IMG/VR virus record: IMGVR_UViG_3300035703_000016
Location: 94,435 to 158,434 of that record
Direction: 5' to 3' (one strand)
Length of the DNA stretch: 64,000 bases
Source of the DNA: a virus
Notes under the pieces: generated by a model
What the model was told of the DNA's origin: nothing
Databases searched by the model: none
Seen by the model: the letters and a program-made list of their open reading frames with translations, nothing else
Shown: piece after piece, positions 14,258 through 54,957 of the stretch
How the letters are laid out: every line of letters begins with the position of its first letter
Position numbering within the stretch: the stretch's first letter is position 1
Made by a program: the position numbers and the translations under genes

Positions 14258-14992
14258 ATGACAGAAGAATCACTATATACCAAAAAAGGGACATTAAGAA
14301 AAAGAAAACCAAAAGTCAAAGTAGAATATTTTACTTTAGAAAATCAAAATGCTATTTTAAAATATCGAACTTTAAAAAATACTTTAGAAAAAGATAAATT
14401 ATATAATGAAAAAATACACGATGCTTTATATAAGTTAGTCGAAAATATTATACACTCTTTTGGATTTTACTATACAGAAGTTGATAACTTAGAAGACTTA
14501 AAATATGAAGTTATATCATTTCTTCTTCAAAAAATACATCTTTACGACGAATCTAAAGGAAAAGCATTTTCTTATTTTGGAACAATAACAAAAAGATATT
14601 TAATTTCTTATTGTCAAAAGAACTACAAAAAGATAATAGAAAAACAAGCTCTTCATAGAGTAGATAACAATATAAATACTGTAGATAGTCTCATATTAGA
14701 AATACCTTCACCAGAATTAGATAGAGCTTCTATAATAGATGAATTAATTGAAAATATAGAAAAAGACTTTGTAAGTATTTTTGATAAAGAAGATGAATTA
14801 AAAGCAGCAGATGCTATATTAGAAATACTAAAAAGACACGAAAATATAGATATATCCAATAAAAAAGCTCTATTTGTTTACGTAAAAGAAATAGCGGATG
14901 TTAAATCAACCTCCATTTCATCAGCAATAAGTAAATTAAAAGTAATTTATAAGAATATTCTAAATAGAAGAATTGAAAAAGATGATTTTTAA
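14258..14992 (+). CDS. Phage late sigma factor (T4 gp55-like)
   Basis: KLVENII...DLKYEVISFLLQKIHLYD..KGKAFSYFGTITKRYLI resembles sigma region 2 (gp55 AFAYFTQI); precedes structural operon. Confidence 0.65.
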   Translation: MTEESLYTKKGTLRKRKPKVKVEYFTLENQNAILKYRTLKNTLEKDKLYNEKIHDALYKLVENIIHSFGFYYTEVDNLEDLKYEVISFLLQKIHLYDESKGKAFSYFGTITKRYLISYCQKNYKKIIEKQALHRVDNNINTVDSLILEIPSPELDRASIIDELIENIEKDFVSIFDKEDELKAADAILEILKRHENIDISNKKALFVYVKEIADVKSTSISSAISKLKVIYKNILNRRIEKDDF

Positions 14993-44134: not shown

Positions 44135-44155
44135 TTTTATATTTTTTAATGTTAG

Positions 44156-44227
44156 TAATCCTATCGAGAATCGAACTCGAGACTTTTCATGGAAAGTGAA
44201 ACGTGATAACCTCTTCACCATAGGATC
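44156..44227 (-). tRNA. trnE: tRNA-Glu(TTC)
   Basis: Cloverleaf; anticodon arm TTTCA-CTTTCCA-TGAAA; GTTCGA T-loop. Confidence 0.88.
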
Positions 44228-44680: not shown

Positions 44681-44806
44681 TGAAAAGATCGTATCTGAAT
44701 TTAACCAGTAACATTCTCTTACCTTCATTTAAAGTGATACTTTTTTTCTAATCTTGACATATTTATTTTTTATTATAAATATACTCAAGGTACAAAAAAA
44801 TGTCCG

Positions 44807-45280
44807 AGGAGTCATAGGGAATCGAACCCTAATCCAAACAATAATAATCAATAGACTCATTCACAAGCTTAGTTAATTTTTCTAAACTAACAAAATAATC
44901 TTTTCCTATTTTAACATCGTTAAAGATAACTGTGTCGAATTCACTTTTAATATGGTAGAAATTCTGAACTAGACCATTATACAATTCAGTCTGTATATAA
45001 CTAGTGAGTTTCTGTTCCTAGGTACCTTACTCAACAACCCGATGAACTAAGCCGCTACAGCGTACTCTCCGTCTACAAATGCTAGAGCATCTTCAACAGT
45101 CCAAGTAGAAAGTTCTACTTTTGCATTTATTTGTGAATACATTTGTTAGGTAAGCTATCGGAATCTCTAACACAGTGTAGTGCCATATTTCCATGTCAAG
45201 TCTTACTTTAAGCACTATATCCTCGTGCTTGCTTGCATCATCTCAAAGAACTTTATCGCTGTCAAAACCTGTGTGACCCC
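44807..45280 (-). ncRNA. ssrA: tmRNA; tag (A)AKVELSTWTVEDALAFVDGEYAVAA* at 45124-45047
   Basis: 5' GGGGTCAC..GGTTTTGAC; 3' TAGGGTTCGATTCCCTA-TGACTCC with G3.U; ATAAAT-GCA resume context; tag ends YAVAA; smpB nearby. Confidence 0.92.
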
Positions 45281-46340: not shown

Positions 46341-46355
46341 ATCATTATTTTCTAG

Positions 46356-46419
46356 ATTGTAAATATACAAAATCTTTTTGACAATTTAAAGACTTTTCTC
46401 GTATATTTGTTTTTATTAT
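46356..46419. promoter_or_regulatory. ~63 bp promoter-like element, near-identical copy at 54444-54506
   Basis: ATTGTAAAT.TACAAAATC.TTTTGACA...TTTTCTCGTATATTTGTTTTTATTAT in both places, each just upstream of a tRNA. Confidence 0.6.
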
Positions 46420-51898: not shown

Positions 51899-51958
51899 GA
51901 TTTGCGTTTACCTTTGCAAAGGTTATAGAGGCACGCATACGCCTTTATCTATATTATG

Positions 51959-52032
51959 TGGAATCGATGAGATTCGAACTCATCACATAGATCTTGCAAA
52001 GATCCATCGCCAGCCTAGGAACATGCGACCCC
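51959..52032 (-). tRNA. trnA: tRNA-Ala(TGC)
   Basis: GGATC-TTTGCAA-GATCT; G3.U70; divergent D-arm. Confidence 0.82.
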
Positions 52033-53309: not shown

Positions 53310-54119
53310 TGCGCCCGGATGGATTCAAACCAACATCGAAATAGCGAAATTAAAGATAATATTCTCTTTTAATTTTATGACATCTAGGATAATTAGCCCC
53401 CTTAGCAGCTAAATTGACTTCTATAAGAGCTTGTCTCATATTCCAATTATTATTTAATAAAGCTTCTAATAGTCTTTCATCAGTTACTTTACATCCTTTA
53501 CGTCTTTGTATTTTTTTATTACGACCTCTCCAAGTATCTGTTAATGCATGACAATTTGGACATAGTAACTCGAGGTTATTTCTATCATTATTAAAATGGT
53601 CACCATCTTTATGTTCTAATTCTAATGGAATATCTCTGCCTTGCCATTTATCATTTCCGCAATTGTTACACTTTCGTCCTTGTTCATAATAAATCTTAAG
53701 TCTCTGATTAGGCCATGTTAGCTCTTCAAATTTAGTTTCAATAATCTTAATGATTTTCTTTTGTCTATTCTCTTCAACCCTCTGTTTATATTTTATAATT
53801 CGTTCAGAATTATCTGCATTTTTTCTATTAGCTTGTTTTACTTTATCAGATTTTTTTGCAGATTCTGATTTTTTCTTCTTATCTTCCTCTGACCATGATT
53901 TGCCTTGTCGACATTTCATGGAACAATAATTAATCAATCCTTTACTCGGTTGAAATTCTACACCGCATTTATTACAATTCTTCATGAGATATTTTTTTAT
54001 TATAAATATCCCAATTGAACCTTTAATATAGTAAATTTTAAAATAATTATTAAAATAATTCCTAAACAGATAAAAGATAAAAATTAGTGCAATGCTCTAA
54101 TCAACTGAGCTACGAGCGC
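53310..54119 (-). pseudogene. tRNA gene split into 5' half (54086-54119) and 3' half (53310-53337) by an HNH gene
   Basis: 5' GCGCTCG-TA-GCTCAGTTGATTAGAGC-A-TTGCA-CT; 3' GTTGG-TTTGAAT-CCATC-CGGGCGC-A; acceptor strands complementary. Confidence 0.75.
53350..53985 (-). CDS. HNH homing endonuclease
   Basis: N-terminal CxxC...YCSMKC; CNNCG...LELEHKDGD..NN..NNLELLCPNCHALT. Confidence 0.9.
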   Translation of the reverse strand: MKNCNKCGVEFQPSKGLINYCSMKCRQGKSWSEEDKKKKSESAKKSDKVKQANRKNADNSERIIKYKQRVEENRQKKIIKIIETKFEELTWPNQRLKIYYEQGRKCNNCGNDKWQGRDIPLELEHKDGDHFNNDRNNLELLCPNCHALTDTWRGRNKKIQRRKGCKVTDERLLEALLNNNWNMRQALIEVNLAAKGANYPRCHKIKREYYL

Positions 54120-54291
54120 ATTTTTTAAATTTTGTTTTACGGAATTTCTTCCAATTTCTTTGTCTTCCTTTTCCTCTACTATTACAACCGCGATTTGGTC
54201 CACATATTGGACATCCAAGTACTACACTTCTAAGTGCAAGTTTGTAAGTTCGAGAATCTAGTGTCTCTGATACAATTTTATTTACTTTCAT
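54097..54291 (-). CDS. Small basic Cys-containing protein
   Basis: CPICGPNRGCN...RNWKKFRKTKFK; 3' end runs into the tRNA 5' half. Confidence 0.5.
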   Translation of the reverse strand: MKVNKIVSETLDSRTYKLALRSVVLGCPICGPNRGCNSRGKGRQRNWKKFRKTKFKKCARSSVD

Positions 54292-54355
54292 TTTATTAGG
54301 TTTTTAAAACCTAATACATGTCAAATTTCTTTTTCATTTTATTTATATTTTTCCG

Positions 54356-54428
54356 CGGTAATGATCAGTATCGACCTGATTCCTCCAGATTTTCAGTCTG
54401 GCGCTTCTATCTAGTTAGCTTCATTACC
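54356..54428 (-). tRNA. trnF: tRNA-Phe(GAA), first tRNA of the array
   Basis: CCAGA-CTGAAAA-TCTGG; atypical A8 and T-loop GTCGATA. Confidence 0.82.
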
Positions 54429-54510
54429 TTGTTTGTTTGCTATATTGTAAATGTACAAAATCCTTTTGACATTTTAAAGTTTTTCTCGTATATTTGTTTT
54501 TATTATCATT

Positions 54511-54549
54511 AAAAAAGCCCTGAAATTTTTTTAATTATCCAGGGCTTTT
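54511..54549 (-). terminator. Intrinsic terminator of putative attenuator
   Basis: AAAAGCCCTGGA-loop-TTCAGGGCTTTTTT on minus strand. Confidence 0.8.
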
Positions 54550-54571
54550 AAAATTAGATTATAAAGTTTAT

Positions 54572-54688
54572 TTATCCTTTATCGTCTGTATCCCTGAAAG
54601 GTTTATATTTTCCCCAAAAGCTAATACTTATTGGAGTAAGAGCTCCAGTATTGATGTCTAGTTTTAAATGTCTTGGATGTTGTATCAT
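54572..54688 (-). CDS. Putative 38-aa attenuator leader peptide (not in ORF track)
   Basis: MIQHPRHLKLDINTGALTPISISFWGKYKPFRDTDDKG*; 5 nt after TATTTATA; contains TTTCAGGG identical to the terminator 3' arm. Confidence 0.65.
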   Translation of the reverse strand: MIQHPRHLKLDINTGALTPISISFWGKYKPFRDTDDKG

Positions 54689-54741
54689 ATTTTATAAATA
54701 TCTGAATATAAATATAAATCAAGAAATTGAGAAAAATTATT

Positions 54742-54957
54742 TTATTTTTTAAGTGGATAAATAACTTCTACAATTTTACTATTACCACTTGATTTCACTT
54801 CAAAATCCCTAATGTGAAGAGCTTCAAAATGTTCATACACTCTAGCTTCACTCTCTGTAACTGAATCAGCTTCTACTAAATACTTTACAATTTCTTTTTT
54901 TGGCTTGTCCTTGTTAGGATCTACTGTTCTAAATTCTACTTTAACTTCAAAAAACAT
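54742..54957 (-). CDS. DUF4494-like protein (Bacteroidota-associated family)
   Basis: FEVKV...KK...YLVEA.SVTESEARV...FEVKS...KIVEV. Confidence 0.65.
   Translation of the reverse strand: MFFEVKVEFRTVDPNKDKPKKEIVKYLVEADSVTESEARVYEHFEALHIRDFEVKSSGNSKIVEVIYPLKK

What the first reader, a model, noticed from the sequence alone, without database searches (positions are those of the whole stretch)
54511..54700. Putative pan-amino-acid ribosome-stalling attenuator gating the phage tRNA array
Seen, in order on the minus strand: late promoter TATTTATA (54693-54700); a 38-codon ORF MIQHPRHLKLDINTGALTPISISFWGKYKPFRDTDDKG using 17 amino acids (all but C, E, V), all first appearing before codon 29; a terminator AAAAGCCCTGGA/TTCAGGGCTTTTTT (54549-54511); then the first tRNA. 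The 8-mer TTTCAGGG occurs both in the terminator 3' arm (54518-54525) and in leader codons 30-33 (54592-54599), so both compete for CCCTGGA (54538-54544). Known: in trp/his attenuators, stalling upstream frees the anti-terminator, while full translation masks it and allows termination. Inference: instead of a run of one codon, this leader samples almost every tRNA, so depletion or cleavage of nearly any host tRNA would cause read-through into the tRNA/RNA-repair island. That would be a phage sensor of tRNA-targeting immunity. I know of no description of such a system. Caveat: a downstream promoter-like element (54444-54506) may give attenuator-independent expression.
Basis: partly seen in the sequence, partly recalled or inferred. 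Interest (0 to 1): 0.9.

Follow-up and report, generated by a model that had tools for sequence, protein, structure and literature searches.

The report
Codon-sampling switch before phage tRNAs
A phage places a tiny translated test gene, wired to a switchable transcription stop, in front of its tRNA genes; in dozens of relatives this test gene keeps all or nearly all 20 amino acids, so it probably turns on extra tRNA production when decoding slows, although this phage's own copy is partly worn down and bypassed.

Summary
The sequence features are all there. On its own the window proves little: 17 amino acids in 38 codons is ordinary (30-36% of protein stretches), and its anti-terminator is the weakest in the family (p=0.08). 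Relatives decide the case. About 30 related phage loci keep the layout: promoter box, 33-51-codon leader, anti-terminator with the stop codon inside it, terminator, tRNA-Phe. Changes in the terminator 5' arm are mirrored in both partners. Of 40 homologous leaders, 26 contain all 20 amino acids and 11 lack only Glu (about 1% expected; column-shuffle p<1e-3). Glu is in the leader exactly when tRNA-Glu is inside the array (8/8 vs 0/10). In most relatives the first tRNA starts 1-12 nt after the U-tract with no promoter between. Best reading: a trp-type ribosome-dependent attenuator that gauges tRNA supply. The window copy is eroded (no Cys, Val or CGN codon) and has an early-type promoter inserted downstream. 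Immunity as the trigger is untested. I found no paper on it. The scan noted this kind of element before on other DNA (e1-5391745, e1-5403646, e1-5354188).

The parts
54742..54957 (-). Upstream DUF4494 gene (71 aa), synteny anchor; no terminator-like hairpin between it and the leader
   Evidence: Pfam PF14902; cluster of 18 at 90% or more; terminator scan
54693..54715 (-). Two ATATTTATA boxes, a probable phage (late-type) promoter; the 3' box lies 4 nt before the leader ATG
   Evidence: 18/43 copies within 30 nt upstream of a same-strand ORF against 1/43 reversed; conserved before leaders in relatives; sigma70-region-2-like gene at window 14258-14992 (below cut-off)
54572..54688 (-). 38-codon leader ORF; modelled sensing zone is codons 1-27 (16 amino acids; no C, E, V; Y28 borderline)
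   Evidence: start and tail (last 6 codons) match relatives L016 and L292 in frame, body rewritten
54592..54598 (-). Anti-terminator 5' strand (UUCAGGG), leader codons 31-33; pairs with 54538-54544
   Evidence: the equivalent strand covaries with the terminator arms in relatives
54556..54587 (-). Inner helix of the anti-terminator, with the leader stop codon (54572-54574) in its loop
   Evidence: an inner helix of different sequence is predicted in the other family members
54511..54549 (-). Intrinsic terminator (12-bp stem, 13-nt loop, U6); its 5' arm is shared with the anti-terminator
   Evidence: -15.8 to -16.2 kcal/mol
54432..54506 (-). Repeated early-type promoter module between terminator and tRNA-Phe, giving an attenuator-independent input
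   Evidence: 89% identical to 46345-46419, about 8 co-oriented copies genome-wide; absent at this position in most relatives
54356..54428 (-). tRNA-Phe(GAA), first gene of the array
   Evidence: Rfam RF00005, 51.7 bits
49642..54428 (-). tRNA array: 20 apparently intact tRNAs for 18 amino acids (Lys broken; Glu lies outside, at 44155-44227 beyond tmRNA), with HNH and HAD RNA-repair genes interspersed

Best explanation
This is a diverged member of a phage family of ribosome-dependent transcription attenuators that gate tRNA arrays. Transcription from the ATATTTATA box, or read-through from upstream, makes a short leader that a ribosome translates at once. If the ribosome keeps pace and passes about codon 28, it covers the anti-terminator strand or melts its stop-containing hairpin; the terminator forms and transcription stops. 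If it is delayed at any codon of the sensing zone, or never loads, the anti-terminator takes the terminator's 5' arm and polymerase reads into the tRNA genes. The family leader holds at least one codon for each amino acid whose tRNA lies in the array, so the switch acts as a feedback gauge of tRNA supply. In this phage the gauge is partly eroded (16-17 amino acids, weak anti-terminator) and controls only one of the array's inputs, because an early-type promoter sits downstream of the terminator. Shown here: anatomy, conservation, covariation, composition statistics, leader-array matching. Inferred: translation of the leader, switching in vivo, timing and the physiological trigger.
For: (1) The layout is conserved in 15/15 syntenic relatives with DUF4494 at 90% or more. 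It also appears in 11 of 12 new loci fetched only on 'U-tract + tRNA-Phe'; the twelfth has a Phe-rich variant. (2) Three-strand covariation: where the terminator 5' arm changes (L284, L285, L291, L292), the anti-terminator strand and 3' arm change to match. The anti-terminator gain is -9 to -18 kcal/mol, p<=0.02, in all 15 tested relatives of this family. (3) The stop codon lies 19-30 nt before the terminator arm, inside the anti-terminator. In the folding model the arm is 60-100% paired with a ribosome upstream and 0-30% paired with a ribosome at the stop. (4) 26/40 homologues have 20/20 amino acids and 11 lack only Glu. The proteome null is about 1%. Column shuffles give about 6 against 17-18 observed of about 25 representatives, and no shuffle of 3000 reached the observed count. 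One leader has all 20 in 26 codons (L285). In most members the full set appears before the modelled switch point. (5) W and Y sit at different positions in different members, and C-termini differ by frameshift among near-identical phages, so composition rather than peptide structure is kept. (6) Glu is in the sensing zone exactly when tRNA-Glu is in the array, 8/8 against 0/10. The leader lacking Ala and Phe heads an array lacking both. In G005 two leaders split the amino acids between two tRNA blocks. (7) The rare CGN Arg codons occur in 13/15 leaders against 2.6 expected. (8) Relatives with only three tRNAs have no leader or terminator. (9) In most relatives tRNA-Phe starts 1-12 nt after the U-tract with no promoter module between. 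(10) Leader-peptide attenuation is reported in Flavobacterium (PMC9723704), and Bacteroidota are not listed among runaway-transcription phyla (PMC13323073).
Against: The window copy is ordinary in diversity (P=0.30). It lacks Cys, Val, CGN and TCN codons although the array has the matching tRNAs, it has the weakest anti-terminator (p=0.077), and its peptide does not score against the family profile. A promoter module bypasses it. The Glu match may reflect only one or two evolutionary events. Reduced arrays (L012, L016) keep 19-amino-acid leaders. I identified no conserved pause or 1:2 hairpin, and modelling says sensitivity needs synchronisation and several regulatory codons (PMC1183508). There are no expression data.
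Confidence: 0.75

Rival explanations
1. The family is a working attenuator, but this copy is a dead or dying relic: an ordinary terminator insulating the array from upstream transcription, with the tRNAs made from the inserted early-type promoters.
For: It has the lowest completeness and weakest anti-terminator of the family. The body of the peptide has been rewritten by indels. A promoter module lies at 54432-54506, with further copies inside the array. The other 17-amino-acid leader (L024) also has the module directly behind its terminator.
Against: The frame is still open from the conserved start to the conserved stop position. The anti-terminator strand matches this copy's own variant of the arm (7 bp) and the inner helix has new pairs. 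W and Y reappear at new positions. L016, L018 and L019 carry the same module and keep 19 amino acids.
Confidence: 0.3
2. The switch evolved specifically as a sensor of host tRNA-cleaving defences (PrrC, PARIS, retron PtuAB, Schlafen types).
For: It controls tRNAs rather than biosynthetic genes, and more tRNA would not cure amino-acid starvation (inference). Phage tRNA expression level determines escape from retron-Eco7 and PrrC (PMC11555353). RNA-repair genes (HAD_SAK_2, metallophosphoesterase, AAA_33 kinase) lie in or beside the array.
Against: Nothing in the sequence separates nuclease cleavage from general tRNA decay during infection, nutrient limitation or ribosome shortage. The host and its defences are unknown.
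Confidence: 0.3
3. It is a general translation-speed or coupling sensor (like toiL or antibiotic-responsive leaders); amino-acid variety is incidental.
For: In the folding model any upstream stall, or absence of a ribosome, gives read-through. Most amino acids are represented by only one or two codons.
Against: Completeness far exceeds column-shuffle and uniform nulls and tracks the content of the array. A generic speed sensor would not need this.
Confidence: 0.1
4. The ORF encodes a functional small protein followed by an ordinary terminator.
For: Relatives keep H, W, C and F at similar positions, and close pairs show some excess of third-position changes.
Against: Three-strand RNA covariation, frameshifted tails, moving W and Y, lengths from 33 to 51, and the promoterless tRNA-Phe directly after the terminator are not explained. 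No family or structure hit was found.
Confidence: 0.04

Closest known systems
Ribosome-mediated transcription attenuators of amino-acid operons (trpL, hisL, pheL, thrL; multivalent ilvGMEDA leader; pheST)
   Same: Short leader ORF overlapping mutually exclusive anti-terminator and terminator hairpins; ribosome position decides (PMC1183508). The same DNA pattern also retrieved Phe-rich and Ile-rich leaders in bacterial contigs.
   Different: No run of one codon: one or a few codons for up to 20 amino acids. It controls tRNA genes in a phage, not biosynthetic or synthetase genes. No conserved 1:2 pause hairpin was found, so the default without a ribosome looks like read-through.
Translation-stress uORFs (toiL of E. 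coli topAI, bioRxiv 10.1101/682021; vmlR and msrD leaders)
   Same: Stalling at many positions of a short ORF relieves repression.
   Different: toiL acts through RBS occlusion and Rho and senses antibiotics. Here the output is an intrinsic terminator, the targets are non-coding, and composition is matched to the tRNA set.
Stress-induced long tRNA arrays (L-arrays; cyanobacterial trn operon, PMC8421152)
   Same: A near-complete tRNA set, linked to homing endonucleases, with a role under translational stress.
   Different: That paper mentions no leader or attenuator (0 hits for either word); from my own knowledge the operon is controlled by a repressor.
Phage tRNA regions that counter anticodon nucleases (T5/SP15 tRNA-Tyr, tRNA-Lys; PMC11555353, PMC11464382)
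   Same: Phage tRNA output can rescue infection from tRNA-cleaving defences.
   Different: Those rely on a strong promoter; no conditional sensor is described.
T-box riboswitches
   Same: tRNA-status-dependent antitermination (own knowledge).
   Different: They bind one uncharged tRNA directly and need no translation; there is no Rfam match here.

Membership tests
Leader-peptide transcription attenuator (trp/his type) | Short leader ORF upstream of the regulated genes, frame kept across relatives | tested here: met
   33-51 codons, open in all family members examined
Leader-peptide transcription attenuator (trp/his type) | Intrinsic terminator between leader and regulated genes | tested here: met
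   -14 to -20 kcal/mol hairpin plus U5-7 in all members
Leader-peptide transcription attenuator (trp/his type) | Mutually exclusive anti-terminator sharing the terminator 5' arm, supported by covariation | tested here: met
   Three-strand covariation; p<=0.02 in 15 relatives, p=0.077 in the window
Leader-peptide transcription attenuator (trp/his type) | Geometry: a ribosome at the regulatory codons leaves the anti-terminator free, a ribosome at the stop blocks it | tested here: met
   Folding model with a 13-nt 3' footprint; the window switches at codon 28-29. Model only.
Leader-peptide transcription attenuator (trp/his type) | Regulatory codons correspond to the products of the regulated genes | tested here: inconclusive
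   Met for the family (Glu 8/8 vs 0/10; G005 partition). Only partly met in the window (Cys and Val codons missing, tRNAs present).
Leader-peptide transcription attenuator (trp/his type) | Run or cluster of one to three kinds of regulatory codon | tested here: not met
   7-14 amino acids occur once in the zone, none more than 6 times; this is the point of difference
Leader-peptide transcription attenuator (trp/his type) | RNA polymerase pause / 1:2 hairpin that synchronises ribosome and polymerase | tested here: inconclusive
   Upstream hairpins are predicted but none conserved that sequesters the anti-terminator strand
Leader-peptide transcription attenuator (trp/his type) | Leader is translated and read-through depends on stalling in vivo | not testable with these tools
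   No RNA data for this phage
T-box riboswitch or other Rfam cis-regulatory family | Match to the covariance model | tested here: not met
   No hit over the leader in the window (gathering threshold) or in L010 and L016 (E<=5)
T4-type late promoter | TATAAATA on the coding strand upstream of genes | tested here: not met
   The gene-oriented box is the reverse complement (18/43 vs 1/43); a different phage promoter class

The most novel reading that the evidence does not exclude
These phages carry a purpose-built, amino-acid-complete leader attenuator that reports the loss of any single tRNA, including loss by host anticodon nucleases, and switches on a replacement tRNA set with RNA-repair genes. 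The window's copy is still active as the conditional late input.
Probability: 0.4. Interest if true: 0.92.

Novelty: new variant of a known kind. Interest (0 to 1): 0.78.

Why it matters
Why phages carry tRNA arrays has been open for decades (PMC10264068). A feedback switch whose test codons match the array implies the tRNAs are an on-demand replacement for a failing host pool rather than constant codon compensation. It makes that directly testable: a 200-base cassette in a reporter shows which stress the phage responds to. It also extends attenuation from sensing one to three amino acids to sensing the whole code, and to non-coding RNA genes. It could serve as a general biosensor of tRNA damage. 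The window's eroded, promoter-bypassed copy shows how such control can be relaxed.

Tried and rejected
The 1.8-billion-protein search found only itself and a repetitive 262-aa protein that I judge a chance match. Atlas hits were 0.90 or below and unnamed. No cultured phage matches the region or a family leader. A family profile searched against 301 genomes of the family of Leptobacterium (Flavobacteriaceae) gave two weak hits with internal stops and no tRNAs nearby: not found in those searched. Sequencing runs: no RNA holder listed; a contig of the probable source run agrees with the window letter for letter. My first shuffle test of anti-terminator pairing did not discriminate because any GG pairs with CCC, so I replaced it with an energy-gain test. 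A MAFFT alignment of the switch region misaligned the covarying members, so covariation was read from per-sequence folds and no covariance model was built. I first objected that a ribosome at the stop would not cover the anti-terminator strand. I dropped this because the stop lies inside the anti-terminator hairpin and the ribosome must pass over the strand. Eight literature searches found no leader-peptide attenuator of tRNA genes; subscription papers are not covered. One paper on coupling across phyla was not held. I did not show that the ATATTTATA box directly precedes the capsid or sheath genes.

Full report
Setting. The window is the last 64 kb of a complete 158,434-bp phage genome with direct terminal repeats, a Gp23-type capsid gene and a tail-sheath gene. 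The best-matching sequencing run is a subsurface metagenome and may be the source. A Bacteroidota host is inferred, not shown: the basis is DUF4494, A-rich translation starts without Shine-Dalgarno sequences, and a repeated promoter module resembling the TAnnTTTG consensus.

Observation. Taken alone, the window is weak evidence. Seventeen amino acids in 38 codons is matched by 30-36% of stretches of this phage's proteins, and 17 within 28 codons by 5-7%. The duplicated 8-mer arises in about 1% of shuffles, and the anti-terminator is only marginally better than shuffled sequence (-6.5 against -3.3 kcal/mol, p=0.077). The 75-base element behind the terminator is a repeated promoter module found about 8 times in the genome, co-oriented and often 26-42 nt before a gene start. 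The ATATTTATA box points towards gene starts (18 of 43 copies, against 1 of 43 for the reverse) and the genome encodes a weak sigma-factor-like protein. A phage promoter is therefore likely; 'late' is an inference.

Relatives. The upstream DUF4494 gene has close homologues. All 15 syntenic loci fetched through it keep the same order: box, 42-51-codon leader, terminator, tRNA array. A second search selected only on a U-tract followed by tRNA-Phe, so it was blind to the leader. Of its 12 new loci, 11 have a leader of 33-48 codons with 18-20 amino acids ending 50-56 nt before the U-tract, and the twelfth has a Phe-rich leader before two tRNA-Phe genes. A more distant DUF4494 relative (L303) has a 20/20 leader in front of 22 tRNAs, whereas relatives with only three tRNAs have no leader or terminator. 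In most members tRNA-Phe begins 1-12 nt after the U-tract with no promoter module between, so those tRNAs depend on read-through. In the window and in L016, L018, L019, L021 and L024 the module sits directly behind the terminator.

RNA switch. In every family member the end of the leader pairs with the terminator 5' arm, enclosing the stop codon. The energy gain is -9 to -18 kcal/mol with p of 0.02 or less in 15 relatives. Where the arm sequence departs from the consensus (L284, L285, L291, L292), both the leader strand and the terminator 3' arm change to match. A folding model with a ribosome covering 13 nt downstream of the A-site keeps the arm paired until two or three codons before the anti-terminator strand and frees it afterwards; in the window the switch falls at codon 28-29. 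I found no conserved hairpin that hides the anti-terminator strand, so an untranslated leader is predicted to read through.

Composition. Of 40 homologous peptides from the protein database, 26 contain all 20 amino acids and 11 lack only Glu. The expectation from phage proteins is about 1% per sequence. Shuffling residues within alignment columns keeps positional conservation yet gives about 6 complete sequences among about 25 representatives below 70% identity, against 17-18 observed; none of 3000 shuffles reached that in any replicate. This null ignores shared ancestry, so the p-values overstate independence. W and Y occupy different positions in L285, L288 and the window, and near-identical phages differ by frameshifts in the tail; both argue against a structured peptide. 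The rare CGN arginine codons (11% of Arg codons in this genome) occur in 13 of 15 leaders against 2.6 expected.

Match to the array. Leaders with Glu in the sensing zone head arrays containing tRNA-Glu (8 of 8). Leaders without it head arrays lacking it (10 of 10), and in three of these, including the window, tRNA-Glu has moved behind tmRNA. The leader lacking Ala and Phe heads an array lacking both. In genome G005 the first leader, read from its second Met, spells the 15 amino acids of the first tRNA block. A second leader there, rich in Ser, Leu, Thr, Arg and Cys, precedes the block with those tRNAs. Limits: the Glu pattern follows clades and may be one or two events, and reduced arrays (L012, L016) keep 19-amino-acid leaders.

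The window copy. It is the outlier. Its start and last six codons match relatives in frame, but the body has been rewritten by indels and no longer scores against the family profile. It lacks Cys, Val, CGN and TCN codons although the array has those tRNAs, it has the weakest anti-terminator, and it is followed by a promoter. The frame, the stop position and a self-consistent anti-terminator are retained, so I put the chance that it still switches at about 60%.

Mechanism and rivals. The most likely mechanism is a ribosome-dependent attenuator acting as a feedback gauge of tRNA supply (0.75). Shown: anatomy, conservation, covariation, composition and matching. Inferred: translation, switching, timing and trigger. 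The immunity reading is plausible, because more tRNA would not relieve amino-acid starvation and because tRNA expression level decides escape from PrrC and retron-Eco7 (PMC11555353), but nothing here separates it from general tRNA loss during infection. Single regulatory codons should make the switch graded rather than sharp (PMC1183508). Attenuation is credible in the inferred host group (PMC9723704; PMC13323073).

Novelty. It works like trp/his attenuators and meets their structural tests, but fails the codon-run feature and controls tRNA genes in a phage. There is no Rfam match and I found no paper describing it. Earlier notes of this scan report the same kind of element on other genomes. 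I had the comparative evidence before reading them and do not count them as support. Verdict: a new variant of a known kind, real at family level and eroded in this window; interest 0.78.

Noticed in passing
window 53310-54119 (-): The tRNA at the position of tRNA-Lys in relatives is split: 5' half at 54083-54119, 3' half at 53310-53355, with an HNH gene (53350-53985) between. The anticodon stems no longer pair and Rfam finds no intron, so it looks like a tRNA destroyed by a homing endonuclease.
   Followed up: partly
window 54294-54337 (-); L008, L015, L283, L294, L303 and others, between tRNA-Phe and tRNA-Lys: A conserved Lys/Arg-rich micro-ORF of 4-11 codons (MKRK...) followed at once by a 7-8-bp hairpin of varying sequence and no U-tract, just before tRNA-Lys. 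The window has an 8-codon variant also seen in L287. It may be a second, Lys/Arg-sensitive control or a processing signal.
   Followed up: partly
window about 51957-52032 (-): An atypical tRNA-Ala(TGC) missed by ARAGORN and Rfam; several tRNA-Phe variants in relatives are missed too.
   Followed up: partly
L311:9323-9478 and L291:12148-12340 (genome G005): Two leader attenuators in one phage divide the amino acids 15 + 5 between two tRNA blocks.
   Followed up: yes
L289:8636-8780: A 29-codon leader rich in Phe, Ala and Asp with a terminator, before tRNAs for Phe, Phe, Glu, Glu, Asp and Ala: a block-specific version in a different phage.
   Followed up: partly
L083:274-496 (-); L104:5888-6045 (-): L083 has an unrelated-looking 53-codon, 20/20 leader with the same switch layout, followed by promoter-like DNA; its downstream genes are not held. 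L104 has a cut-off leader and terminator directly before an 8-tRNA cluster.
   Followed up: partly
L066, L119, L259, L076, L257, L260: The same DNA pattern retrieved classical-looking Phe-rich and Ile-rich leaders in bacterial contigs, before genes I recognise from sequence as DAHP synthase and threonine dehydratase (gene names not checked by a tool).
   Followed up: no
window 14258-14992 (+): A 244-aa protein with a weak sigma70 region-2 match (E 2.5e-4); candidate sigma factor for the ATATTTATA promoters.
   Followed up: partly
window 44806-45280 (-): tmRNA with a 25-residue tag; similar long tags occur in relatives.
   Followed up: no
window 54097-54291 (-): A 64-aa basic ORF with a CPxC motif overlapping the 5' half of the broken tRNA; a singleton in the protein collection.
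   Followed up: no
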